Part shown: positions 5,971 through 59,817 of the stretch, piece after piece | Layout: each line of letters starts with the position of its first letter | Position numbering within the stretch: the stretch's first letter is position 1 | Sequence record: OR062525 | Reading direction: 5' to 3' (one strand) | Source: Escherichia phage vB_EcoM_10C2_SA_NWU | Length of the DNA stretch: 64,000 nucleotides | The notes under the pieces: model-generated | What the model was told of the DNA's origin: nothing | The model's database searches: none | Seen by the model: only the letters and a program-made list of their open reading frames with translations | Translations under genes and position numbers: made by a program

Positions 5971-6564
5971 ATGCTGATCGGAATTGATGTAGATTTAACA
6001 CTGGTAGACTCAGGAACAGCATGGTGGGAGTGGCTAGAGCGTTTATATGGTCCAGCCAGTAAGACAGTTGCTAAACCTTCTAACGGACTGATGTATTACG
6101 ATCTGTCAAAGTATTGGCCTGATCGCCCCAAAGAAAACATCATAGGGCCTTTTGATTTCTGGAGTGATCCGTTCCTCTACGACTTTCTTAAGCCTGAAGA
6201 GGGGGCTATTGAGGTTATGAAAGATTTGGTTGCTCGTGGTCACAAGCTTGCATTTATCTCTGTATGCAAGAAAGGTCACCTTGCATCTAAATCAAGGTTC
6301 TTAAAGCGTTGGACCAGCGATTTTATGGATCTTGACGATCACACCCAGGGCCACGGCTTCTATGCCACACATTTCAAAGGAAATGTGGCTGTAGATGTTA
6401 TAATTGACGACAGGCATGAATACCTGAACCAATTCGCTTCACGCCCTGAAGTTATTAAAATCTTAAAAGACACTCCTTATGAGCAATTCGAGGAGTTGAA
6501 GGTCAGTGTTGACTATACCACCAATAGTTGGTATAAAATAGGAAAGTTTTTAGAAGGTATTTGA
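5971..6564 (+). CDS. HAD-superfamily hydrolase, possible 5'(3')-deoxyribonucleotidase
   Basis: N-terminal IGIDVDLTLVD (HAD motif I DxDxT); sits among nucleotide metabolism genes. Confidence 0.45.
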   Translation: MLIGIDVDLTLVDSGTAWWEWLERLYGPASKTVAKPSNGLMYYDLSKYWPDRPKENIIGPFDFWSDPFLYDFLKPEEGAIEVMKDLVARGHKLAFISVCKKGHLASKSRFLKRWTSDFMDLDDHTQGHGFYATHFKGNVAVDVIIDDRHEYLNQFASRPEVIKILKDTPYEQFEELKVSVDYTTNSWYKIGKFLEGI

Positions 6565-35945: not shown

Positions 35946-36161
35946 CTATGCTGTACGCTCAACTATAACAACGGTTTGGGGGATCTCCCCTTCCACCACT
36001 AGTAAGGCCTTTTTCTGCGTGATAGATATCTTTACCCGTTGCAGCGTGGCGGTGAAGTCTTTCATTTCGTCACGCGGTGTTTTAGTGCAGTACCAGATCT
36101 CAGGCTTGCCGATCTGTAAGTTGCGTAAAAATTCCGTTTTGCCTGTTTTGTTAGTGATCAT
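35946..36161 (-). CDS. hypothetical protein
   Basis: co-directional ORF. Confidence 0.35.
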   Translation of the reverse strand: MITNKTGKTEFLRNLQIGKPEIWYCTKTPRDEMKDFTATLQRVKISITQKKALLVVEGEIPQTVVIVERTA

Positions 36162-36352
36162 TTGCCAACCTCACCCGATACCGTTGGAAGACAAGATCAT
36201 ATTAGACATGGTTGCAATCAGGCCAATACCCAGGGCAATAACCAAGATCACTGCATCGATTAATTTCTGTTTCATGGTGTTTATTCTCTTCTGTTAGTAA
36301 CCTTATTCATGGGGCCGCTACCACAGCCCCAGGGTAAGGCAGCTATGTGCTT

Positions 36353-36598
36353 TTAGTGTTTCATTCCAACCATCGCGGCACGGATCGCCGTAGTGCTGTA
36401 CTTGAAGCCGTCCGGGGTCTTATCTTGTCCGGTTAGCTCCAGAAAAAGCATCATATCCCGCGCCGCATCATTACGATTAGCATTGGCGTTAATAAAGCCT
36501 TGGGCCAACCGGTACAATGACTCATCGTTATTAATCCAAAGGCTTACATTCCAATGAGTTTTGTTTTTGTAACCGTTATAACCTTTATTGCTTTTCAT
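36353..36598 (-). CDS. hypothetical protein
   Basis: start placed at internal ATG with AGAGGT RBS. Confidence 0.4.
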   Translation of the reverse strand: MKSNKGYNGYKNKTHWNVSLWINNDESLYRLAQGFINANANRNDAARDMMLFLELTGQDKTPDGFKYSTTAIRAAMVGMKH

Positions 36599-36940
36599 GG
36601 TGTTTACCTCTTCTTTGTTCCAGGTGGCGGACCATTCCACCGCCTTATGTATTATGCTTTGTAAGATGGCTGTTGTCAAACTATTTTAACGATAATCATC
36701 GTACGCTTTATTAACCTGGCGGATATAACATTCAAAAGCCAGATCAATAGATTTATATTCACGGATATACTCACCATAGGAAACCACATACATTTCTATA
36801 GCTTCCTCATATGCGAGGAGAATAGAATCTAAGCCTACGATCTCAGTCTTTGCAATAATAGCCATGATTTTTATCCTCTTTGTAGTTGGTGGGGTTCGTT
36901 GCCCCCTTTGATTTATATATTACAGTCTTATATGGTCATG

Positions 36941-37174
36941 TCAACTATTTTCAAAAAATTTTTCTGCTGTGATATTCTTCCCGGTAGGGTTCGCTACTTT
37001 CAAAATTTTATCATGCACTGGACGCCCAAAAGAATAAGCGCCGTACACAGTAAACCAATAATCGCCGTCAGGTTGTACTATTACTGCCGCATATGGTACG
37101 CCTTTTTCGTTTTTGCTGACAAAATAGATCACGTTGCCATTAATAGCCTCGGCGCGTTTAATTTGTTCCATCAT
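36941..37174 (-). CDS. hypothetical protein
   Basis: co-directional ORF; GC hairpin in leader. Confidence 0.4.
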   Translation of the reverse strand: MMEQIKRAEAINGNVIYFVSKNEKGVPYAAVIVQPDGDYWFTVYGAYSFGRPVHDKILKVANPTGKNITAEKFFENS

Positions 37175-37229
37175 GATGATTTGCCTCTCTTTATTTTCAT
37201 AATTGGGGGCCTTTTCGGCCCCGCCAGGT

Positions 37230-37514
37230 TTATTTATTGATAGCGTGCAGCGGGAAAGCTACGCCAGGTTGATAAATAACCTTTACAACCTCATCAGGAC
37301 AAAAGAAGTTGCAGAACTCACCGCAATAGGCCTCATCCTCTTTCAACTCTTCATCAACATACTCAAAAAAGTAGTCGATGCTTGGATAATCCTGGCCGTG
37401 ATTATAGTCAACCATCGTTAATAATAACTCTTGATCATTCCGTAGGATGTGCATACCCGCTTTTAAGTATTTTGCTTCCATTTCTACTACATCGCCAGCG
37501 GTAACAATAGCCAT
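37230..37514 (-). CDS. hypothetical acidic protein
   Basis: AGGAG RBS; GGGGGAGGCCCCC hairpin in leader. Confidence 0.4.
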   Translation of the reverse strand: MAIVTAGDVVEMEAKYLKAGMHILRNDQELLLTMVDYNHGQDYPSIDYFFEYVDEELKEDEAYCGEFCNFFCPDEVVKVIYQPGVAFPLHAINK

Positions 37515-37647
37515 GATTTTAACTCCTATCTATCTGGTCAACGATTGGGGGCCTCCCCCTCGACAACTCTTATTATCCATATTGTCGGGAATGATGCAAG
37601 TACTTCTTTAAAAATTTTTTAAGCGCCCCGTATGCCGTTGTAACGCC

Positions 37648-37678
37648 AAAATAATAAAGGCCATGCAACCGCATGGCC
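37648..37678 (-). terminator. rho-independent terminator (possibly bidirectional)
   Basis: GGCCATGC-AACC-GCATGGCC hairpin flanked by A-run on one side and T-run on the other. Confidence 0.5.
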
Positions 37679-37716
37679 TTTATGTGATTATATTGCTGCA
37701 GGCCCTGCTAGGGGCC

Positions 37717-38067
37717 TTATTTTGCATTCTTGCCTGTATTGCCGCCACGGTACCAGCGTTTGCGGTGAAAATGGTAATAATCCCCCTCGGCATTAAACAT
37801 CAGATGATTTTCAATAACCAGCTTACGAAGGTGGGCCGGATCTTGTTCCATTCTTGCCAGATTCCGGCGGCTGTTACGTAAGCGTATAAATTCCATATTC
37901 AGGCCGTTGATTGCAGCATGGATGTCAAAGTAACCACCTTTGAGACGTTCACGCATGGCGTTAAGCTCAACACAATATACAGATTTCTCACAAATCAAGG
38001 TATTAGCTAGGGCGCGGACCTGGGCAAGGGGGTTAAGCTCATTGAGGTAATATAGTTTGACTTTCAT
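37717..38067 (-). CDS. hypothetical protein
   Basis: co-directional ORF. Confidence 0.4.
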   Translation of the reverse strand: MKVKLYYLNELNPLAQVRALANTLICEKSVYCVELNAMRERLKGGYFDIHAAINGLNMEFIRLRNSRRNLARMEQDPAHLRKLVIENHLMFNAEGDYYHFHRKRWYRGGNTGKNAK

Positions 38068-38084
38068 AAAATCGCCTGCTGAAA

Positions 38085-38393
38085 TTAGTTTGAGAAAACA
38101 TCGTTCACAATAGCGATCACAATGCCGCCCACCTTGTCACGGTCAACAATGCACAAATCACCATGGATCATGCGGTAGTCTGGATGATCTTTCACAGAAT
38201 AGTCAATAAGTGTTTTCTTGTCGTCCAGCTTCGTAACTTCCATTCTCATAACGATATGAGAATCATCAAAGGCATTATTCCGAAAAGTCATAGCCTGACC
38301 GCCAGGGCACCCGGTGATCTCCACTTCCACACCATCTACGATCTGACCATCAAAGAAATAAAGATTATTAGCCTGGATAAACATGTCTATCAC
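38085..38393 (-). CDS. hypothetical protein
   Basis: co-directional ORF. Confidence 0.4.
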   Translation of the reverse strand: MIDMFIQANNLYFFDGQIVDGVEVEITGCPGGQAMTFRNNAFDDSHIVMRMEVTKLDDKKTLIDYSVKDHPDYRMIHGDLCIVDRDKVGGIVIAIVNDVFSN

Positions 38394-38431
38394 TCCTTGT
38401 TAACTGCGTGGTATTTTAACAGGGTTTAAAT

Positions 38432-38475
38432 TTACTTTATCGATGGCCCTGAAGTCAAGGCCATCTAAAAATAAA
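38432..38475 (-). promoter_or_regulatory. repeated 44-bp intergenic element with GATGGCC-N10-GGCCATC palindrome (copy 1)
   Basis: near-identical to copies at 42146 and 42765; TTGACT in loop on - strand. Confidence 0.5.
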
Positions 38476-38477
38476 TT

Positions 38478-38678
38478 TTACAGGCCTACAATCTCTTTGA
38501 TTCGTTTAACTGCTGCCTCAGCGCCTTGGGGGTAGAAATTATGATAACCAATCACGCGAGTGATACTAATCGCCGTTTGATGATCTTCATAGTCGCCCTT
38601 GAAGATTTCTTGACCGTCAATCAGCACGGCAATTTTTTCTTCTTTTTTGAAGTTAATAACGCGGATATTGTTGCTCAT
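38478..38678 (-). CDS. hypothetical protein
   Basis: co-directional ORF. Confidence 0.4.
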   Translation of the reverse strand: MSNNIRVINFKKEEKIAVLIDGQEIFKGDYEDHQTAISITRVIGYHNFYPQGAEAAVKRIKEIVGL

Positions 38679-39155
38679 TTTGTTTCTCCTTTCTGGTTTT
38701 TGTGGTGGTGGAGATTAGCTCCCCGTTGATTGTTATTATCCACATTCCGGACCGGATTGCAACACCCCGGAAGAAAAATTTTTTAAAAGATAGGCCCCCA
38801 TGATCGGGGGCCGCTCTTAGTTACTTACAGCGATAAAGTACATCCCTACGCCTAACAATATTTCAAGGGCGATAATCTCAAGCCATACCATAACACGGCG
38901 CACCTTATCAGCGCATGGCTTATCCTTGGTTGTCATCGTCTCCCCCTTCCCTCCTGTTAGTAGTGACGTGGTTTACAATGGCCCCCAGGAGTCCTATCAC
39001 CACGCACACCACAAGAAAAATTATCTCCGCTGTTGTTCGATCCATTGTTATAAAATTCCTCAAGATCAGGCCTGAAAATAAAGCGTTCGTTATTGAATCC
39101 GTCACGCCAGGCGGCTGGCTTCAAATCTTCACTAAAGGGATTAATTAACGTGGCG

Positions 39156-39527
39156 TTATTTAAACGGCTGGTCCACATATTTTCTATTCCTCTCAAATAG
39201 GCGATCCGCTTCAGTTAAACATATCTCATGGGCTTGGTCTCTGGTTTTAGCCTCATCAAAAACCTGTTGTGCCAGGCTGCAGCGTAGGGAGACTGGAAGA
39301 TCACTATAATAGGCGTTGACAAACGTTTGTGCGTCATACAGGTCGGAAAACACTTTACCCTTTCTATTATCGCCCTTGTCAACAATTGCAAGGATAACCA
39401 ATACAATAGTTGCAACCACTCCCAGGAAAATAGATATAACAAACCATAGAAAAGCGGATCTACCTATCTTGCCAGCGATCCAGGCGTTGAACAAGGCAAC
39501 TACTACAGCCAAAATAATAAATTCCAT
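39156..39527 (-). CDS. small membrane protein (two predicted TM helices)
   Basis: internal ATG with AAGAGGT RBS; MEFIILAVVVALFNAWIAG and FLWFVISIFLGVVATIVLVILAIV. Confidence 0.45.
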   Translation of the reverse strand: MEFIILAVVVALFNAWIAGKIGRSAFLWFVISIFLGVVATIVLVILAIVDKGDNRKGKVFSDLYDAQTFVNAYYSDLPVSLRCSLAQQVFDEAKTRDQAHEICLTEADRLFERNRKYVDQPFK

Positions 39528-39591
39528 TCTATGTACCTCTTTTGCAGTTCTGTTTAACAATAAGGCGGCAAATATGCCGCCTGTTACCTGA

Positions 39592-39972
39592 TTAAAAATT
39601 ATCGCCGTAAATCTTTCCGCTTTCTGCCCACACCACCACGCGGGGCATGTTATCCCATACATCTTGTTTTAGATTTAACGCGTGCAATTCTTCGGTGGTG
39701 CTCATACCAGGCACGGGCTGATTGTATACTGCAAAACGACCACCTGCATAATCATAGGCCAGAGTTAAATCACACTGAATCATCTTTTTGATCATGGCGT
39801 TAAGCATAGCGTTAGCCGCATACTGGTCACGTTTTAAAGGCAACTCTTTGATTAGTTTGCGATAGTTTTCAATGTGATCGCACACTGTTTCACGTGGAAG
39901 ATCTTTCATATCTTCACGGAATGTAACCAGGTTAAACATAACGGTGTCAATAGCTTTAGTAGTGTTTTTCAT
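39592..39972 (-). CDS. hypothetical protein
   Basis: co-directional ORF. Confidence 0.4.
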   Translation of the reverse strand: MKNTTKAIDTVMFNLVTFREDMKDLPRETVCDHIENYRKLIKELPLKRDQYAANAMLNAMIKKMIQCDLTLAYDYAGGRFAVYNQPVPGMSTTEELHALNLKQDVWDNMPRVVVWAESGKIYGDNF

Positions 39973-40060
39973 AATGTTTACCTCTTTGTTTTGTGTGGGG
40001 CAAACGTCTTGCCCCTTGAGTTTTAATATAGCAGGTTTTTAGGTTATTGCAACACTTTAT

Positions 40061-40684
40061 TTATGAAAAAGTCATCTCACCGTGTTCATCGACATCAAAC
40101 CGCCAATCATTGGCCTCGATAAGGCCGATCAAGTTTTCGGCGGTGAATTGTTCAAGATAGGCCTCCTCCAGGTCTACGTAAACCTTGCGGGATAACTCCC
40201 GTACCGTCTCGGTGATCAGCTCTTCCAGATCTTCCACTTTGTTTTCTTGTTTGGTGGTCAGGTCTAGCCATGTAGTATCGATGTATCCGTTTACAGTGTT
40301 TTCGTGACTATAGCGGCTATATGGATCACGCTCAACACTTGCGGATAACTCGCCATCGTGCATTGTGCCGAACAAGTGACGAATTGAGCGGAATTTAGTC
40401 AGAGACTTGACTTTACGCAAGAATTTTTCTAAATCCACGTTTTCCGCACTGATTGACGCGCCGTCACCCTGGCACCAAAAGCCTGACCAATGTACATCGG
40501 TATCTTCAAGGCCGTACTCTGGAAAAACATATTCTTTATAGTACTCAATTACACTTTCTGCAAAAAAGTTATCCCCGCTGTGTTCTTCTCTTTCGCGGAC
40601 CATTTCCACGGCTTTTTCTTTTTGTTCGTCGGTCAGCACGTCGAAAGCTAAATTGTAACCTGTGGTAATGTTAACGGTGGTCAT
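40061..40684 (-). CDS. hypothetical acidic protein (207 aa)
   Basis: ORF with consensus promoter, leader hairpin and AGGAGAAAA RBS. Confidence 0.5.
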   Translation of the reverse strand: MTTVNITTGYNLAFDVLTDEQKEKAVEMVREREEHSGDNFFAESVIEYYKEYVFPEYGLEDTDVHWSGFWCQGDGASISAENVDLEKFLRKVKSLTKFRSIRHLFGTMHDGELSASVERDPYSRYSHENTVNGYIDTTWLDLTTKQENKVEDLEELITETVRELSRKVYVDLEEAYLEQFTAENLIGLIEANDWRFDVDEHGEMTFS

Positions 40685-40712
40685 GATATTTTCTCCTGTT
40701 TTCTTTGTTAGT

Positions 40713-40731
40713 GGCGGGAAGTTTTCCCGCC
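40713..40731 (-). promoter_or_regulatory. conserved 5' leader hairpin GGCGGGA..TCCCGCC (copy 1)
   Basis: inverted repeat between promoter and RBS; same hairpin at 42558 and 43226. Confidence 0.5.
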
Positions 40732-40741
40732 TGTGTTTTTA

Positions 40742-40770
40742 ATTATACTTATTGAGATTTACTTGTCAAC
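40742..40770 (-). promoter_or_regulatory. consensus sigma70-like promoter
   Basis: TTGACA-N17-TATAAT on - strand. Confidence 0.6.
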
Positions 40771-41019
40771 ACTATTTTTTAAATTATTGTGGCGCAAAAT
40801 GTTTAAAATCTCTTCAACGTCATCAACACGGCGGCAATTTTTAAACGCTACCAATTGCCCCATGATTTTAATCACTGGGCGGCCTTGCCAGTGCCCCTGG
40901 AGAAAGCGCGCCTTGACTTTATCGGTGGAACTATCACGCCACCAAACGGCCTTGTTATTGCAGTAGTAAAAATTATTCAGGACAATATCAACTTTATCAA
41001 AATTTTTTAATTTACGCAT
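40759..41019 (-). CDS. hypothetical protein
   Basis: co-directional ORF. Confidence 0.4.
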   Translation of the reverse strand: MRKLKNFDKVDIVLNNFYYCNNKAVWWRDSSTDKVKARFLQGHWQGRPVIKIMGQLVAFKNCRRVDDVEEILNILRHNNLKNSVDK

Positions 41020-41239
41020 GGCGTTTACTCCTTACTTCTCGCTTTGATGTGATTAGTATATCTAGAATATTTTAGATGTCAACAATATTTTTAACGCTTT
41101 AAAACAGCCTTTGACGATGTTTTCAGGTTAAGAAATGGGATTGCATGGGTAGGGGGCTTTTAGGGCGTTGTGGGGCCAACCAGGGCGCTATTCGTAGGGT
41201 AGAAATAAAAAGCCCCGCACGATGGCGGGGCGTTGGTTG

Positions 41240-41461
41240 TTAGTTGCCTTTGTGGCGGTATCGTTCCGCCTGCCGTTCACGTTCCAAAAGGAGGCCCGGC
41301 AATTTACGATCATAATGATTCCGCCAGATCTTCCCAAATCTTTTTGGCTTATTCAGTTTATTGTTACGCTGGCGGCGTTCCGGCAGCTCTTCGGAATCAT
41401 GAGATCGCTTTACAATTTTCTCAAAATTAATCTTCATATATTCCCCCCTTGCTAACTTCAA
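41240..41461 (-). CDS. small basic protein
   Basis: Arg/Lys-rich ORF. Confidence 0.35.
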   Translation of the reverse strand: MKLARGEYMKINFEKIVKRSHDSEELPERRQRNNKLNKPKRFGKIWRNHYDRKLPGLLLERERQAERYRHKGN

Positions 41462-41780
41462 TATTGGCCTGAATAGCCCGGATACGGCGCTTTATAACTT
41501 CCTGATCTGTGTGATCGTATCCCCAAAAGTCCACAATTTTTGCGCCCCCTGCCTCCAAGCGGTATAGTGTTTCCTGCATCTTGTAAGCCGGGATCGGTCG
41601 CGGTGTTACTTGGTCACCTTCTTTATTTTTATACTTTATAATATAATCTTCGTTATCGTTGAATGTCCAAAATGGATATTCTGCAAGGGCGGTACTTCCT
41701 CTTTCCTTTTTATCCTGGATCTTGTTTACAATTAAAGCTGTAGCAATAGCGCCAATAATAAAACTAGCCCCGCTGATCAT
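41427..41780 (-). CDS. membrane-anchored hypothetical protein
   Basis: N-terminal hydrophobic segment ASFIIGAIATALIV. Confidence 0.4.
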   Translation of the reverse strand: MISGASFIIGAIATALIVNKIQDKKERGSTALAEYPFWTFNDNEDYIIKYKNKEGDQVTPRPIPAYKMQETLYRLEAGGAKIVDFWGYDHTDQEVIKRRIRAIQANIEVSKGGIYED

Positions 41781-41855
41781 GTACTTTCTCCTTTCATGGT
41801 GTTAATAAACTATCTTTATAGATGGCCCTGCCACTAGGGCCACCGAAAAAACAGC

Positions 41856-42101
41856 TTATTTGACAATACCGACAAAACAGATCCCACCTTCCCCAACATA
41901 GGCGATGTCGGTCACCTTATAATTGGTTAAGATCTGCTTATTTAGTTCATTAATAAAATCGGTCATCGCGTTGGTGTAGTTGTCTTCCATGTCTAGGGAA
42001 TAATCCCAAGTGTAAACCTTTTTACGTCCGAAGCCTTTTACCATGATACGGGCGCTTTTGGTGTTGGTAGGGGCGTAATATTTAGTGATTAGTGCTGCCA
42101 T
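41856..42101 (-). CDS. hypothetical protein
   Basis: co-directional ORF; AGGAG RBS. Confidence 0.4.
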   Translation of the reverse strand: MAALITKYYAPTNTKSARIMVKGFGRKKVYTWDYSLDMEDNYTNAMTDFINELNKQILTNYKVTDIAYVGEGGICFVGIVK

Positions 42102-42145
42102 GGTTTTAACTCCTATGCATTAGTTCAGTGTTAACAGTATAAAGT

Positions 42146-42190
42146 TTACTTTATTGATGGCCCTGGAGTCAAGGCCATCTAAAAATAATC
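42146..42190 (-). promoter_or_regulatory. repeated 44-bp palindromic intergenic element (copy 2)
   Basis: TTTACTTTATTGATGGCCCTGGAGTCAAGGCCATCTAAAAATAA. Confidence 0.5.
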
Positions 42191-42532
42191 TTACTCGTTT
42201 TCTTCCAGCTCCGCAAGCTCTTCTTTTGCTTCTTCCAACTCTGTCTGTAATTCCTGGTATTCTTCATCGTCCTCAATATCCAGGCTGTCGATGTAGTCGC
42301 TAAATCCGCAGCGGTAAGCGATAGGATCTAGCTCCTTGAGGATACGCGACGGAAGAAAAGAAATGTTTCCGATCATAATTTCGCCGTAGATCTCGTCTAA
42401 CCATTCATCATAGTTTTCGTCGTACTTGTCCTCGTCGATTTCAAAGTTATCGATCTTATTCTCAAGGTCTGCGATCTGTTTTTTCAGGGCAGCGATCTGA
42501 ATAGCTTTTTCTGCGGCGGTCATAGTGGTCAT
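42191..42532 (-). CDS. hypothetical acidic coiled-coil protein
   Basis: ORF with promoter (TTGACA-N16-TATACT at 42583-42610), leader hairpin and RBS. Confidence 0.45.
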   Translation of the reverse strand: MTTMTAAEKAIQIAALKKQIADLENKIDNFEIDEDKYDENYDEWLDEIYGEIMIGNISFLPSRILKELDPIAYRCGFSDYIDSLDIEDDEEYQELQTELEEAKEELAELEENE

Positions 42533-42764
42533 GGTGTTTTCTCCTTTTGTGTGTTCTGGGAAGTTTTCCCGTTGATGTGTTTAGTATACCGATCTAAGTT
42601 AGCTTGTCAATTAAAAGTTTAAGAAAAATTTTGCGACACCGTTGGCGCTACCCATCAACATTTGCGCCAGGATATAACCAATGATGCAAACGATAATAGT
42701 TACCTTTGTGTGCTGGCGTGTAGTGCTCATCTTCAAGCCTCCTTTTAGCTTAACTAGGATTAGT

Positions 42765-42809
42765 TTACTTTATTGATGGCCCTGGAGTCAAGGCCATCTA
42801 AAAATAAAC
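42765..42809 (-). promoter_or_regulatory. repeated 44-bp palindromic intergenic element (copy 3)
   Basis: identical core to copy 2. Confidence 0.5.
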
Positions 42810-43205
42810 TTAGTAAGTTTTCAGTACTTTCCCATCCAGTCTGTCAAGCTGGATCTCGATAGCTGCAGAAAACCTATTATAAACCACATCGCCCAGGGAG
42901 TCCAGCCAATCTATGACGTTATACACCTGCTCTTTATTCTTGCAAGTCCGGATCCGTTTCATTACGTAAGACGGATCAATATTAGTGCTCCCGTTGTTGT
43001 GGTCATGCGCCTGGCCTGCTGCACTGGTTATAGATTTTACAACCACCTGAAAGGGCTTTAAGGTGCCTTTTGCGTTCATCTCACGCGCTTTTGCGGCGCG
43101 GTTGTTATATGTTACACAACGGCGGCAAATGTTGACCAAATGCATATCAATAATTTTTTCATCGTTTGCCAGTTCGTTCATGATGCGGCGTACGTTCTTA
43201 TTCAT
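42810..43205 (-). CDS. hypothetical protein
   Basis: ORF preceded by conserved leader hairpin. Confidence 0.45.
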   Translation of the reverse strand: MNKNVRRIMNELANDEKIIDMHLVNICRRCVTYNNRAAKAREMNAKGTLKPFQVVVKSITSAAGQAHDHNNGSTNIDPSYVMKRIRTCKNKEQVYNVIDWLDSLGDVVYNRFSAAIEIQLDRLDGKVLKTY

Positions 43206-43295
43206 GATCTTTTTTCCTTTGTGTTGGCGGGAAACATTCCCGCCTTTTGTGTCTAGTTTACTTTAATTTTGCAGCGTGTCAATAATTTTTTTTTT

Positions 43296-43694
43296 TTATT
43301 CGTGGGCGCATGTCACAATGTGCTTTTTATACCCCAGGTGGGCAGCAAGTGCTGACAAAAACTCATCTTCATAGATCCAGCCGTTGGCAGTGATCCCCAT
43401 AGCATTTAACGCGCTTTCAAGTGCTGCATTGGCCTTATCATAACCGTGACCGCTCGCCTTGCCACCAGTATAACCGTACTTATTATTCTTGTTGTCGTGT
43501 ATCCAAAAAACGCAGTAGTTAGTGTTACCGCTGGCGGCGGCATAGTACCGGATCTCCGCTACTTCGTGCAAATTATTATCATCGTCTAGGCCCACCAGAT
43601 TATAAGCCTTGTAAAATCCACGATCACGGCGGCAGTTCTTGACATCAGAAAAAGAAAAGTCCGCATTATCAAAATTAAAGGTAGTGGTTTTCAT
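43296..43694 (-). CDS. hypothetical protein
   Basis: co-directional ORF. Confidence 0.4.
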   Translation of the reverse strand: MKTTTFNFDNADFSFSDVKNCRRDRGFYKAYNLVGLDDDNNLHEVAEIRYYAAASGNTNYCVFWIHDNKNNKYGYTGGKASGHGYDKANAALESALNAMGITANGWIYEDEFLSALAAHLGYKKHIVTCAHE

Positions 43695-43757
43695 GATTTT
43701 ATCCTCTTAGTGTCTTTTGCGATTTCAGTATATTTTGTGTCAGACCATATGTCAATA

Positions 43758-43955
43758 TTATTTTTTATTAAACCAGTGGTTGATCTGACCTTTTGTCAGG
43801 GCGCAACGGTTAAGCTGTTGCAGGGTATAGCTATGACCGCGACGAAATTTATAAAGGCCTTGCCCGTTGTTGATGGTTACATCCACCCGGCAAATCACTT
43901 GATTGGTGACCACCTGGCGAGTGTTGCGACGTACTTTAATTCCGTAGGCGTTCAT
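43758..43955 (-). CDS. hypothetical protein
   Basis: co-directional ORF. Confidence 0.35.
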   Translation of the reverse strand: MNAYGIKVRRNTRQVVTNQVICRVDVTINNGQGLYKFRRGHSYTLQQLNRCALTKGQINHWFNKK

Positions 43956-44033
43956 GATTTTTTATCCTCTCTGTTAATTGGTGTGGTGTTGTTCACCTTG
44001 CGAGGATAAGAATAACAAGAACTGTCCGAGCTG

Positions 44034-44216
44034 TCAACCATTAGTTAAAATTATTTTTGGGTAGAATTCTCCAGCCGCCGCCCCTGCCAGGTTAACCATC
44101 ATTTTTTCGTACTCTTCTTTATGTTCCAACGCTCCCGCCATAGCCTTTTCAACCAGGGCGATAGCCTCAGCGTCATTAATAGCTACATTTTCCAGGGGGA
44201 TCATATTACCTTCCAT
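44034..44216 (-). CDS. hypothetical protein
   Basis: co-directional ORF. Confidence 0.35.
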   Translation of the reverse strand: MEGNMIPLENVAINDAEAIALVEKAMAGALEHKEEYEKMMVNLAGAAAGEFYPKIILTNG

Positions 44217-44410
44217 TTTTGTACCTCCTCTTCAATTGTTACCTATCCTATAGCATAGGCCCACCAGGTTTGCAAGCCTTCATTATCTCCTACCTGGTCA
44301 GTTAGGCCCTGCCAGGCTGGCCCCGCCAGGTTGCAGCGGTCAGCGCATCAGGTTAGAATTTTTTTTTTTTGAAAAGTGTTGACAGCGGCCCCGCCAGGTG
44401 GCACAATATA

Positions 44411-44650
44411 CCTATCGAAAGGACGGCAGGCACCGGTGACGGGGGAGACAACCACCGGGGATGGGCGCTGCATAAAATGAGAACGGTTATCATTATCATT
44501 TAAAAATTTATGCAAAAAATCCTTGCTTTCTTTGTCCTGTGTGATACTATAATAACAAGCCGGGGCAACAGGGGCCGGGAGACAATCACCGGGCCTGCCC
44601 GTTATTCTGCAAACGAGAATGATTATCATTCAAAATTCTAAATGAGAACT
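44411..44650. repeat. two tandem homologous units of about 95 bp (candidate small RNAs or protein-binding modules)
   Basis: GGGAGACAA[CT]CACCGGG and GAGAA-N-TTATCATT shared by unit 44411-44510 and unit 44555-44650. Confidence 0.5.
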
Positions 44651-45235
44651 CCTCGCATTTAATAAATTTAATTAGCATGCTAATTACCCTCCGTAACAAT
44701 TTCCTATAAAACAGTATCCCATAAAATATTCCCATATAGAAATTTTAAAAATCCATTTCTGAAAACGAAAAATCGATTTCGTCCCCAAAAATTTCAGGTC
44801 GAGATCCGGAACGATTTCCAGAAAATCCGATTCAGAAAACGAAAAACAGATCGAGTACTGAGAAATTTATCGAGAAAAATTTTCAGAAAATCCAAGCCAT
44901 GAAATGAAAAGTAGATCGAGTACTTGGAAAGCTGCACCGCAACTTCAAGATAGTGGTTAGATTGTTACCATAGAAGGTTAAGGGCAAGTGGAGGAAGTTC
45001 TAGTAGAGGGAGGTTAGCATGTGCGGGAAATCTATAATGGTGGCCTGGAATATGGTGCAAACGATAGGATGAGTTATTCAGCTTGTCGCGCCTACTCTGA
45101 AAAATCCATTTTAGTTTTCGATCCATTTTCTGATTTTCTAAGAATTTTAAAATATCCAGCCCGGTGAAATATCAAAAGGAGGAAATCCATTTTAGAAATC
45201 CCCCTTACACTTGATATGCCAGGAATTTTCAAGTA

Positions 45236-45565
45236 TCAGCTGTCTTTGTTTTTAGGTTTGTACATGCGTAGAGGTATGGTCTTTGTAACATTCCATTTCC
45301 TCAATCCTTCCCAGCTCCAGTTGTGGGCGTGGTATCCGGTTATGCATGCACTACTGGAGTGATCGTAAGCATAAGAGAACGCTAAGCGCACCAGGTGGGG
45401 CCAGTCCTTCCATGGTTGTGGACCGTAAGCTTTTCTCCAACACCGACACAAACTAAATGTCTCAAGGATAGGAAGGATAACAAACCCATACACTGTCACC
45501 AAAATAGTCAGTGCAATGATTGTCAGGAACACATACCCTGCAGTTGAAATGATGATCTCTGTCAT
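45236..45565 (-). CDS. membrane protein (hypothetical)
   Basis: N-terminal hydrophobic stretch IIISTAGYVFLTIIALTILVTVYGFVILPIL. Confidence 0.4.
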   Translation of the reverse strand: MTEIIISTAGYVFLTIIALTILVTVYGFVILPILETFSLCRCWRKAYGPQPWKDWPHLVRLAFSYAYDHSSSACITGYHAHNWSWEGLRKWNVTKTIPLRMYKPKNKDS

Positions 45566-45765
45566 TTGTCGTCCCCTTTCTTACGGATATAAATGTGAGA
45601 ACCTGCCTGTATATAAATTTCTCGACCATCTTCTGCGAAGATGTGGAATACACGGTCACCTTCGTACTCAATACGAGATATCTTCATAATGGTCTTTCCA
45701 CCTGGGATACGGATCTCGTCCCCCACAGCGATGTTCCATGCAGATTTAAGCTTAAACATCTGCAC
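45562..45765 (-). CDS. hypothetical protein
   Basis: ATGA-coupled ORF. Confidence 0.4.
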   Translation of the reverse strand: MQMFKLKSAWNIAVGDEIRIPGGKTIMKISRIEYEGDRVFHIFAEDGREIYIQAGSHIYIRKKGDDK

Positions 45766-45997
45766 CCTCCTTTGGGAACTTGAACTCTGGCATAGCCATA
45801 TACGCTACAACAGGGTTGTGATCAAAGTAGAACTGACCGTTAATTATCCCGGTTTTACTCACATAGTTACCAGATCCTGCAAGAACAACCTCGCAAGCTC
45901 CGAAATCTACATTGCCATCCTCATCAGCCATGGCTACGATATACTTTCCTAGAGGCATGTTTTTAACGCCGTCTACAAATGTCCACCCTTTGTTCAT
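45752..45997 (-). CDS. hypothetical protein
   Basis: co-directional ORF. Confidence 0.4.
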   Translation of the reverse strand: MNKGWTFVDGVKNMPLGKYIVAMADEDGNVDFGACEVVLAGSGNYVSKTGIINGQFYFDHNPVVAYMAMPEFKFPKEGADV

Positions 45998-46017
45998 ACT
46001 TTATCTCCTGCACTTTC

Positions 46018-48735: not shown

Positions 48736-48763
48736 AAAAATGCCCTACCCTTTCGGGCAGGGC
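48736..48763 (-). terminator. rho-independent terminator
   Basis: GCCCTGCCC-GAAA-GGGTAGGGC hairpin followed by TTTTT on - strand. Confidence 0.55.
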
Positions 48764-59790: not shown

Positions 59791-59817
59791 AAAAAGCCCC
59801 ACCCTTTCGGGCAGGGC
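59791..59817 (-). terminator. rho-independent terminator
   Basis: GCCCTGCCC-GAAA-GGGTGGGGC hairpin with G.U pairs followed by TTTTT on - strand; near-duplicate of terminator at 48736. Confidence 0.55.

What the first reader, a model, noticed from the sequence alone, without database searches (positions are those of the whole stretch)
38432..42809. Repeated 44-bp intergenic element containing a GATGGCC-N10-GGCCATC palindrome
TTTACTTTATTGATGGCCCTGGAGTCAAGGCCATCTAAAAATAA occurs three times (38432-38475 with one or two substitutions, 42146-42190, 42765-42809) plus a variant at about 41812-41850, always just downstream of a - strand stop codon. The 7-bp arms with a 10-bp spacer fit a dimeric DNA-binding protein operator; on the - strand the loop contains TTGACT followed 17-18 nt later by TAAA[CT]T. 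It lacks a U-tract, so it is not a canonical terminator.
Basis: seen in the sequence. Interest (0 to 1): 0.5.

Follow-up and report, generated by a model that had tools for sequence, protein, structure and literature searches.

The report
Phage intergenic hairpin-promoter repeat cassette
A roughly 50-base repeat found four times between small early genes of an rV5-like coliphage folds into a conserved mRNA hairpin, also looks like a host-type promoter in three copies, and marks the points where gene cassettes are lost or swapped between phages, much like the promoter/stem-loop (PeSL) cassettes of T4-type phages.

Summary
Four copies lie at 38429-38479, 41808-41858, 42143-42193 and 42762-42812, against 0.1 expected by chance, and a covariance model finds no others in the 136-kb genome. 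The window is an rV5-like phage (Vequintavirus) with all local genes on the - strand.

The operator reading is not supported. On the - strand each copy starts at a stop codon and folds into a two-part RNA hairpin: 10-bp A/U lower stem, 2x3 internal loop, 10-bp G+C upper stem, tetraloop (dG -21 to -28 kcal/mol). Across 27 distinct copies, 98% of pairs hold on the sense strand and 86% on the antisense. Changes are G-U wobbles or compensatory. There is no U-tract, so it is not an intrinsic terminator.

Three copies also carry TTGACT-18-TAAAYT. The same AAAGTAAACT is the -10 context of canonical promoters in this phage and in a phi92-like phage.

Copies act as recombination junctions. At least four isolates lack the 619-bp cassette between copies 3 and 2 and keep one chimeric copy. 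A phage of another subfamily acquired a promoter-gene-element module.

The closest known kind is the T4-type PeSL. Hairpin function (3' stabiliser or RNase III-type site) and promoter activity are inferred, not shown.

The parts
42762..42810 (-). Copy 3 (type A). Hairpin from the last base of the stop codon of the 131-aa ORF (TAA 42812-42810) to the end of the lower stem. Predicted -35 TTGACT 42791-42786; predicted -10 TAAACT 42767-42762.
   Evidence: dG -25, z -6.1; 85 bits sense, 41.7 antisense
42143..42191 (-). Copy 2 (type A). Hairpin starting in the stop codon of the 113-aa ORF (TAA 42193-42191). Predicted -35 42172-42167; predicted -10 42148-42143.
   Evidence: dG -21.5; 81.8 bits
41804..41860 (-). 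Copy 4 (type B). Same two-part hairpin with a longer lower stem, overlapping the stop codon of the 81-aa ORF (TAA 41858-41856). No -35 hexamer and a different loop.
   Evidence: dG -28.3, z -6.3; 71.7 bits
38428..38478 (-). Copy 1 (type A). Hairpin starting in the stop codon of the 66-aa ORF (TAA 38480-38478). Predicted -35 TTGACT 38458-38453; predicted -10 TAAATT 38434-38429.
   Evidence: dG -24.7; 80.9 bits
42192..42761 (-). ORFan cassette bracketed by copies 3 and 2: 39-aa ORF (42730-42611), sigma70 promoter TTGACA-16-TATACT (42610-42583), 5'UTR hairpin, and 113-aa ORF (42532-42191). With one repeat copy it forms the 619-bp unit absent from ECP26, ECP32, ime, phiWec189 and IMG/VR contig L019.
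42139..42611 (-). Module shared at 93.7% identity with Justusliebigvirus phage KKE7M: promoter, 5'UTR hairpin, 113-aa ORF and element copy 2. Homology stops at the 3' end of the element.
42750..42754 (-). GTTAA starting at the predicted +1 of the copy-3 promoter. Equivalent GTTAA lies at 42131-42135 (copy 2) and 38416-38420 (copy 1). Inferred initial transcribed sequence.
   Evidence: conserved across relatives while the rest of the 5'UTR varies

Best explanation
The four copies belong to a Vequintavirus-specific composite intergenic cassette read on the - (coding) strand.

(1) RNA layer. Structure is shown; function is inferred. In read-through early mRNA each copy starts at the upstream stop codon. 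It folds into a roughly 50-nt two-part hairpin: a 10-bp A-U/G-U lower stem, a 2x3-nt internal loop, a 10-bp G+C-rich upper stem and a tetraloop. No U-tract follows, so E. coli RNA polymerase should not terminate there. About two helical turns interrupted by an internal loop is the shape that blocks 3'-exonucleases, and the shape E. coli RNase III cuts once in T7 intercistronic sites. I therefore infer that the hairpin defines or stabilises the 3' end of the upstream ORFan message inside a polycistronic early transcript.

(2) DNA layer, in three type A copies. This is predicted from sequence and comparison only. The same DNA spells a moderate sigma70 promoter: a T-rich tract at about -46 to -56, TTGACT in the hairpin loop, an 18-nt spacer, TAAAYT in the 3' lower-stem arm, and a conserved G(TTAA) at +1. 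This would restart transcription for the downstream gene.

(3) Evolutionary layer. This is shown by comparison. The copies are near-identical direct repeats a few hundred bp apart. Recombination between them, and between their promoter halves and other early promoters, deletes, inserts and exchanges the ORFan cassettes they bracket, including exchange between phage subfamilies. In function and architecture this matches a T4-type PeSL (promoter-early stem-loop).
For: Identity and context.
- The window matches Vequintavirus phage vB_EcoM_12A_SA_NWU at 100%. Genes are on the - strand.
- All flanking genes fall in PHROGs of unknown function.

Structure.
- All copies fold alike on the - strand: dG -21.5 to -28.3, z -5.4 to -6.3. 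On the + strand dG is -15 to -18, z -2 to -3. The same fold appears in 37 copies from relatives.
- RNAalifold independently returns the same 20 pairs.
- Pair counts: 98.3% of cells paired, and 0 of 500 shuffles reach this. Slid controls give 35-56%. Four lower-stem pairs change on both sides (GC/AU/GU, UA/CG, UA/AU/GU, AU/UA). All four variable upper-stem pairs change only through G-U.
- The antisense strand would pair only 86.5% of cells; 72 cells are G-U.
- The covariance model scores 72-85 bits on the sense strand and 32-42 on the antisense.
- Within copy 4 orthologues, C-G in this phage is U-A in EdH4 and isim.
- The element is invariant except for loop nt 3-4 and one internal-loop nt, while adjacent 5'UTRs vary.
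- There is no U-tract and the terminator scan does not list the sites. The EdH4 and Alma records do not annotate them as terminators.

Promoter.
- The hexamers match the consensus at 9 of 12 positions.
- TTGAC is invariant in type A copies while the sixth base varies T/A/G.
- AAAGTAAACT is the -10 context of the canonical TTGACA-16-TAAACT promoter at 43282-43255, listed as P194 in rV5 Table S4.
- In phi92-like phage PD114, AATAAAGTAAACT is the -10 region of TTGCAA-16-TAAACT, followed by a 5'UTR hairpin and SD. KKE7M recombined exactly there with the element.
- The Gotham record annotates TTGACTCCAGGGCCATCAATAAAGTAAACT as a PhagePromoter prediction.

Recombination.
- ECP26, ime and L019 carry one chimeric copy with the 5' flank of copy 3 and the 3' flank of copy 2, and lack 619 bp. 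ECP32 and phiWec189 match that junction as a single piece.
- The KKE7M module boundary lies at the element.
- The loop variants ACAC and ACTT, and the internal-loop G, are shared by different paralogous positions in different genomes. This indicates gene conversion.

PeSL definition and behaviour come from PMC2839356 and PMC4122927. RNase III substrate rules come from PMC1540722.
Against: - There are no transcript 5'- or 3'-end data for any rV5-like phage, so hairpin function and promoter activity are both untested.
- Most double changes separate type A from type B paralogues, so independent covariation events are few. Gene conversion could account for part of the near-invariance without selection.
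- The promoter matches only 9 of 12 positions, has a long 18-nt spacer and has a G+C stem directly upstream of -35. The rV5 authors' 10/12 screen did not list it.
- Copy 4 and the divergent copy 3 of IMG contig L030 keep the hairpin but lose promoter geometry. The promoter is therefore dispensable for at least some copies.
- PeSL stem-loops were reported to terminate transcription; this hairpin lacks terminator features.
- There are only 4 copies per genome, against many in T4-type phages.
- The base pair next to the internal loop is G-C. If that is RNase III proximal-box position 4, it is a catalytic antideterminant.
Confidence: 0.55

Rival explanations
1. Pure RNA element. The hairpin (RNase III-type processing site, 3' stabiliser, or binding site for an RNA-binding protein) is the only selected function. 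The TTGACT/TAAAYT resemblance is a by-product of an A/U-rich lower stem and a chance loop sequence.
For: Copy 4 and L030 copy 3 keep the hairpin through compensatory or wobble changes but have no usable -35/-10 geometry. Strand asymmetry is strong. The promoter matches only 9 of 12 positions with an 18-nt spacer.
Against: TTGAC is invariant while neighbouring loop bases vary. AAAGTAAACT is the -10 context of two canonical promoters, and recombination with one of them preserved a promoter-like arrangement in front of a 5'UTR hairpin, SD and gene in KKE7M. A conserved G lies at the predicted +1.
Confidence: 0.2
2. Non-canonical terminator or attenuator plus promoter, i.e. a true PeSL. The hairpin partially stops or pauses upstream transcription, and the promoter re-initiates.
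For: PeSL stem-loops in RB49 acted as terminators in reporter constructs. The hairpin is strong (-21 to -28 kcal/mol) and sits directly after stop codons. The tail after the stem is A/U-rich.
Against: Only about 2 U in the first 8-12 nt after the upper stem, and no consistent U-run after the lower stem. The U-rich arm is 5' and the A-rich arm is 3', the reverse of an intrinsic terminator, on both strands. Canonical terminators with U-tracts are used elsewhere in the same region: 38812-38793, 39582-39563, 41231-41212.
Confidence: 0.12
3. A dsDNA operator (7-bp arms, 10-bp spacer) for a dimeric regulator overlaps the -35 of a promoter.
For: Perfect 7-bp arms in three copies overlap a promoter-like -35. 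The arms are highly conserved in relatives.
Against: Pairing extends to 10+10 bp only on one strand, with invariant G-U pairs. Arm changes (A to G, C to U) break DNA symmetry but keep RNA pairing. Lower-stem covariation has no meaning for an operator. Copy 4 has the arms but no promoter to regulate.
Confidence: 0.06
4. A selfish or neutral palindromic repeat (REP- or MITE-like) with no function, kept uniform by gene conversion.
For: Concerted evolution among copies. Association with indels.
Against: No copy in 5,426 E. coli genomes. Only 4 copies per genome, all in one orientation, all exactly at stop codons. No empty sites or target-site duplications seen. Compensatory change within orthologous copy 4. 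Strict strand bias.
Confidence: 0.05

Closest known systems
PeSL (promoter-early stem-loop) cassettes of T4-type phages (Arbiol et al. 2010, PMC2839356; Comeau et al. 2014, PMC4122927)
   Same: A conserved composite of a stem-loop and a sigma70-like early promoter, with an A/T-rich tract upstream. It lies in intergenic spaces between small ORFans of a hyperplastic early region, followed by SD and start codon. Recombination between copies leaves a chimeric element and removes or inserts the intervening ORFan. Degraded half-copies exist.
   Different: A different phage lineage (Vequintavirinae, and one Stephanstirmvirinae), with no sequence similarity. The promoter is inside the hairpin (-35 in the loop, -10 in the 3' lower-stem arm) rather than downstream of it. 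The hairpin has no terminator tail. There are only 4 copies per genome. Terminator activity and mini-circles are untested here.
Phage T7 intercistronic RNase III processing signals (R1.1 type; substrate rules in Pertzev and Nicholson 2006, PMC1540722)
   Same: An intergenic hairpin in polycistronic early mRNA with about two helical turns split by an asymmetric internal loop and no U-tract. Single-strand cleavage of such sites leaves a protective 3' hairpin. The internal loop here lies 10 bp from the tetraloop, close to the 11-bp minimum distance from loop to cleavage site.
   Different: No homology. Cleavage is untested. The base pair flanking the internal loop is G-C, which is unfavourable if it is proximal-box position 4. 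Whether rV5-like phages depend on RNase III is unknown.
Rho-independent terminators
   Same: A G+C-rich stem-loop directly after a stop codon.
   Different: No 3' U-tract. The U-rich arm is on the 5' side. The terminator scan does not call it, nor do the terminator annotations of the EdH4 and Alma records.
REP and other intercistronic mRNA stabiliser hairpins of E. coli operons (from my own knowledge of the malE-malF REP literature; not checked here)
   Same: A repeated extragenic palindrome inside operons that could protect upstream mRNA from 3'-exonucleases and serve as a recombination substrate.
   Different: Not present in E. coli genomes. Phage-specific, very low copy number, and carries a promoter-like motif.

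Membership tests
PeSL (T4-type promoter-early stem-loop) | sigma70-like -35 and -10 hexamers at about 17-nt spacing | tested here: met
   TTGACT-18-TAAACT/TAAATT, 9 of 12 positions, in copies 1-3. Not present in copy 4. This is a sequence match only; activity was not measured.
PeSL (T4-type promoter-early stem-loop) | Stable stem-loop adjoining the promoter on its upstream side | tested here: met
   Hairpin of -21 to -28 kcal/mol, z about -5 to -6. Here it overlaps the promoter instead of preceding it.
PeSL (T4-type promoter-early stem-loop) | Intergenic position between ORFans of a hyperplastic region, followed by SD and start codon | tested here: met
   Stop codon, then element, then SD and ATG within 25-45 nt. 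Flanking genes are PHROGs of unknown function. The region is rich in indels among relatives.
PeSL (T4-type promoter-early stem-loop) | Copies mark insertion, deletion or replacement junctions and leave chimeric elements | tested here: met
   619-bp cassette loss with a chimeric copy in ECP26, ime and L019, and in ECP32 and phiWec189. Cassette exchange between KKE7M and PD114 has both junctions in promoter sequence.
PeSL (T4-type promoter-early stem-loop) | Stem-loop acts as a transcription terminator or attenuator | not testable with these tools
   The sequence argues against efficient intrinsic termination because there is no U-tract. Needs in vitro transcription or Term-seq.
PeSL (T4-type promoter-early stem-loop) | Formation of excised mini-circles | not testable with these tools
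   Needs inverse PCR on infected cells or virion DNA.
Rho-independent terminator | U-tract (at least 5 U in 8) starting 0-2 nt after the stem | tested here: not met
   The tail after the upper stem is AAUAAAGU (copy 1: GAUAAAGU; copy 4: UAUAAAGA). The sites are not listed by the terminator scan, although neighbouring canonical terminators are.
E. coli RNase III processing signal (T7 R1.1 type) | About two helical turns of dsRNA | tested here: met
   10 + 10 bp coaxial stems, longer in copy 4. Rule from PMC1540722.
E. coli RNase III processing signal (T7 R1.1 type) | Internal loop or bulge that limits cleavage to one strand, at least 11 bp from the loop end | tested here: inconclusive
   The 2x3 internal loop begins 10 bp below the tetraloop in all copies. 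The geometry is compatible, but the cleavage site is unknown.
E. coli RNase III processing signal (T7 R1.1 type) | Proximal and distal box sequences without antideterminants; actual cleavage | not testable with these tools
   The box register cannot be set without a mapped cut. G-C next to the internal loop could be a catalytic antideterminant.
Operator for a dimeric DNA-binding protein | Dyad symmetry maintained in duplex DNA, with changes symmetric or strand-neutral | tested here: not met
   Arm substitutions keep pairing only as G-U on the - strand: 98.3% of cells paired on the sense strand, 86.5% on the antisense.
Integron attC-like cassette site | R''/R' core sites (RYYYAAC ... GTTRRRY) and an integron integrase in the genome | tested here: not met
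   No RYYYAAC at the 5' boundary. GTTRRRY fits only downstream of copy 3 (GTTAAGC). No integrase or recombinase is annotated in OR062528.1. The consensus is taken from my own knowledge of integron literature.
Host REP/MITE-type repeat | Copies in the host chromosome, or many dispersed copies in both orientations | tested here: not met
   No match in 5,426 complete E. coli genomes. Four copies in the phage genome, all in one orientation.

The most novel reading that the evidence does not exclude
The hairpin is the recognition site of a dedicated structure- and strand-specific machinery. This could be an attC-like single-strand recombination site, or the target of a phage RNA- or DNA-binding protein. 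It would actively excise and insert ORFan cassettes and move them between Vequintavirus and Justusliebigvirus phages. That would amount to an integron-like gene-cassette system in strictly lytic phages, rather than passive homologous recombination at a regulatory repeat.
Probability: 0.05. Interest if true: 0.8.

Novelty: new variant of a known kind. Interest (0 to 1): 0.35.

Why it matters
- It extends the PeSL idea, in which regulatory promoter/stem-loop repeats act as linkers for modular shuffling of early ORFans. Here the idea applies outside T4-type phages, to rV5-like and phi92-like coliphages used in therapy and biocontrol.
- There is a concrete inter-subfamily cassette transfer with both junctions inside promoter sequence.
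- It supplies an unannotated, strongly structured intercistronic RNA element to test for mRNA processing or stabilisation in a phage group with no transcript maps.
- It flags a recombination-prone 619-bp cassette that varies between otherwise near-identical isolates.
- It does not overturn any current view.

Tried and rejected
- Rfam at permissive E-value on 36000-46000: only sub-threshold chance hits (rhtB 23 bits, SurC 21 bits) on two copies.
- Exact-pattern scan of IMG/VR (CAGGGCCATCNATAAAG): 18 loci, of which only the 3 Vequintavirus-derived ones carry the element. The rest are unrelated coding matches.
- Metagenome scan with the 81-aa neighbour: only 4 loci, all Vequintavirus.
- tblastn of the 81-aa neighbour to find syntenic sites in other Vequintavirinae genera: homologues below 60% identity are in unrelated phages (CAjan-like, Pseudomonas, Klebsiella). 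No distant orthologous intergenic site was available for deeper covariation.
- Covariance-model search for divergent copies in the whole genome and the KKE7M locus: none beyond the known ones.
- Brute-force 60-nt folding scan of the whole window for a wider class of hairpins without U-tracts: 348 hits, mostly coding-sequence noise, so it was abandoned.
- Literature search for Vequintavirus transcriptomics: nothing usable. rV5 Table S4 does not list the element.
- + strand mini-ORFs starting at the ATGGCC inside the element (38443-38535, 42154-42303, 42773-42862): rejected. The loop and internal-loop variation falls inside them, and all neighbouring genes are on the - strand.
- Integron attC, host REP/MITE and Frpo-type single-strand promoter analogies: considered and rejected. 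The first two are in the membership tests. For an Frpo-type promoter both hexamers should be in duplex stem, whereas here the -35 is in the loop.

Full report
1. OBSERVATION

The palindrome GATGGCC-N10-GGCCATC (up to 2 mismatches) occurs four times in the window, against 0.1 expected. The repeat finder groups the sites into one 51-nt direct-repeat family at 38429-38479, 41808-41858 (the divergent copy), 42143-42193 and 42762-42812. All neighbouring ORFs are on the - strand. Each copy begins at, or overlaps, a - strand TAA stop codon and is followed within 25-45 nt by an SD and start codon.

2. SOURCE OF THE WINDOW

Window 38000-43200 is 100% identical to Escherichia phage vB_EcoM_12A_SA_NWU (Vequintavirus, rV5-like). 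It is 90-97% identical to about 120 other records. The copies lie in the block of small - strand ORFans (record 104-121 kb). Their products match only PHROGs of unknown function.

The region is organised as many short units: a sigma70 promoter, a 5'UTR hairpin, genes, then a canonical terminator. The repeat sits inside such units, between genes, where no canonical terminator is present.

3. ANATOMY

Folded as RNA on the - (mRNA) strand, every copy gives the same two-part hairpin:
- a lower stem of about 10 A-U/G-U pairs (UUUAUUUUU with AAAGUAAAY);
- a 2x3-nt internal loop;
- a 10-bp upper stem (GAUGGCCUUG with CAGGGCCAUC, including a U-G pair);
- a tetraloop.

The energy is -21.5 to -28.3 kcal/mol with z -5.4 to -6.3. 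The + strand folds much less well, at -15 to -18 kcal/mol, because the G-U pairs become C-A mismatches.

I collected 61 copies (36 distinct) from 17 related genomes or contigs, and all adopt this fold. On an ungapped alignment of 27 distinct copies:
- RNAalifold independently predicts the same 20 pairs.
- 98.3% of pair cells are standard pairs. None of 500 shuffles reaches that, and slid registers give 35-56%.
- Four lower-stem pairs show changes on both sides.
- The four variable upper-stem pairs vary only through G-U.
- Read on the antisense strand, only 86.5% of cells would pair.

A covariance model built from the alignment scores the sense strand at 72-85 bits and the antisense at 32-42. 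It finds exactly four copies in the whole 136-kb genome.

Within orthologous copy 4, a C-G pair in this phage is U-A in EdH4, isim and ECP26, with C-A intermediates in V18 and L031.

One caveat applies. Most double changes separate the two paralogous types, so independent events are few.

The element is essentially invariant among relatives except at loop positions 3-4 and one internal-loop base. The adjoining 5'UTRs and synonymous sites vary.

4. WHAT IT IS NOT

It is not an intrinsic terminator.
- The tail after the stem is AAUAAAGU in copies 2 and 3, with one base different in copies 1 and 4.
- The U-rich arm is 5' of the stem on either strand.
- The terminator scan does not list the sites, yet it finds the canonical terminators nearby.
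- The EdH4 and Alma records do not mark them as terminators.

It has no Rfam family. It is not a host repeat: there is no match in 5,426 E. coli genomes.

It is not well described as a duplex-DNA operator. Conservation follows single-strand pairing rules rather than dyad symmetry.

5. THE PROMOTER LAYER

Copies 1-3 (type A) carry TTGACT in the loop, an 18-nt spacer, and TAAACT or TAAATT in the 3' lower-stem arm. That is 9 of 12 consensus positions.

Support beyond the consensus match:
- (a) TTGAC is invariant in all type A copies except the divergent L030 copy 3 (TTGATA), while the sixth base varies T/A/G and the next varies C/T.
- (b) AAAGTAAACT is also the -10 context of the canonical promoter TTGACA-16-TAAACT at 43282-43255, which is rV5 P194.
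- (c) In phi92-like phage PD114, AATAAAGTAAACT is the -10 region of TTGCAA-16-TAAACT, followed by the usual 5'UTR hairpin, SD and gene. In KKE7M the element has recombined exactly within that sequence. TTGACT-18-TAAATT now sits in front of the same 5'UTR.
- (d) A conserved GTTAA begins at the predicted +1 in all three copies.
- (e) The Gotham GenBank record already lists the 30-mer as a PhagePromoter prediction.

Evidence against:
- The rV5 authors' 10/12 screen did not list it.
- Copy 4 (type B) has no -35.
- The divergent copy 3 of an 83%-identical relative keeps the hairpin through compensating changes but has 15- or 20-nt hexamer spacing.

The hairpin is therefore the more consistently conserved feature.

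6. THE RECOMBINATION LAYER

ECP26, ime and IMG/VR contig L019 have a single element with the 5' flank of copy 3 and the 3' flank of copy 2. They lack the 619-bp unit between these copies: the 39-aa ORF, a sigma70 promoter and the 113-aa ORF. ECP32 and phiWec189 match that junction as a single piece.

KKE7M belongs to Justusliebigvirus, in a different subfamily. It shares 474 bp at 93.7% with window 42611-42139. That span is exactly promoter, 5'UTR hairpin, 113-aa ORF and element. Its relatives carry a different ORF at that place. The left junction lies in the spacer of a shared promoter, and the right junction lies in AATAAAGTAAAYT.

The loop variants ACAC and ACTT, and the internal-loop G, turn up at different paralogous positions in different genomes. 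This indicates gene conversion among copies.

7. MECHANISM

Shown:
- a repeated, strand-specific, structurally conserved intercistronic hairpin at stop codons;
- promoter-like hexamers in three copies;
- recombination junctions at the copies.

Inferred:
- The hairpin acts in read-through mRNA as a non-terminating 3' structure. About two helical turns with an internal loop 10 bp from the tetraloop is the geometry of E. coli RNase III single-cut sites, which leave protective 3' hairpins (PMC1540722).
- The type A copies re-initiate transcription for the next gene.

Probabilities:
- RNA structure under selection: about 0.85.
- Functional promoter in type A: about 0.5.
- RNase III specifically: about 0.3.
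- The composite PeSL-like reading overall: 0.55.

8. COMPARISON AND NOVELTY

The closest known kind is the PeSL of T4-type phages (PMC2839356, PMC4122927).
- Defining features met: promoter hexamers, adjoining stem-loop, A/T-rich tract, ORFan context, chimeric junctions at indels.
- Not testable here: terminator activity and mini-circles. Terminator activity is doubtful on sequence grounds.
- Differences: a different phage lineage, the promoter embedded in the hairpin, no terminator tail, and only four copies.

I found no description of this element in the rV5 literature. I rate it a new variant of a known kind, of moderate interest.

Noticed in passing
window 40704-40741, 42546-42583, 43217-43254 (- strand); also L007 about 6062-6085 and L037 about 1324-1345: A second repeat family. 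Strong sigma70 promoters (TTGACA-16/17-TATAAT/TATACT/TAAACT) are followed by a 5'UTR hairpin GGCGGGAAnnnTTCCCGCC (or GGGAAAACTTCCC) just before the SD. The same promoter, 5' hairpin and SD layout occurs in phi92-like phages. It may be a 5' mRNA stabiliser, and it provides the left junction of the KKE7M cassette exchange.
   Followed up: partly
window 44730-44930: Three degenerate 62-nt direct repeats (61-76% identity, spacing 65-74 nt) in an ORF-poor stretch. This may correspond to the 'non-coding' box drawn in the rV5 genome paper. Function is unknown; a replication or regulatory region is possible.
   Followed up: no
window 37727-38092: The 116-aa ORF (37717-38067) is absent from several relatives (Gotham, L019, L032, V18, PDX) with clean breakpoints that do not involve the hairpin element. 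This shows other indel routes in the same hyperplastic region.
   Followed up: no
GenBank records MG0656xx (hits H24-H28 and others): Seventeen records named 'Campylobacter phage', with host Campylobacter jejuni, are about 94% identical to this coliphage region and carry the element. Other 'Campylobacter phage' records match phi92-like phages. Host misattribution or contamination in that submission seems likely.
   Followed up: no
L010 (Gotham) 6001-6056, equivalent to window copy 3: Copy 3 of phage Gotham lacks 5 nt (GGGCC) of the 3' upper-stem arm, which destroys both the hairpin and the promoter spacing. This is either a natural knockout or an assembly error.
   Followed up: no
window 48737-48763 and 59791-59817: Two 93%-identical terminator-like hairpins (GCCCTGCCCGAAAGGGTAGGGC type) lie 11 kb apart. 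They may form another repeated regulatory unit.
   Followed up: no
window 37654-37683 (- strand): A 13-bp-stem terminator-like hairpin, ATAAAGGCCATGC-GGTT-GCATGGCCTTTAT plus a T-rich tail, contains the same ATAAAG and GGCCAT words as the element. A relationship to the element was not examined.
   Followed up: no
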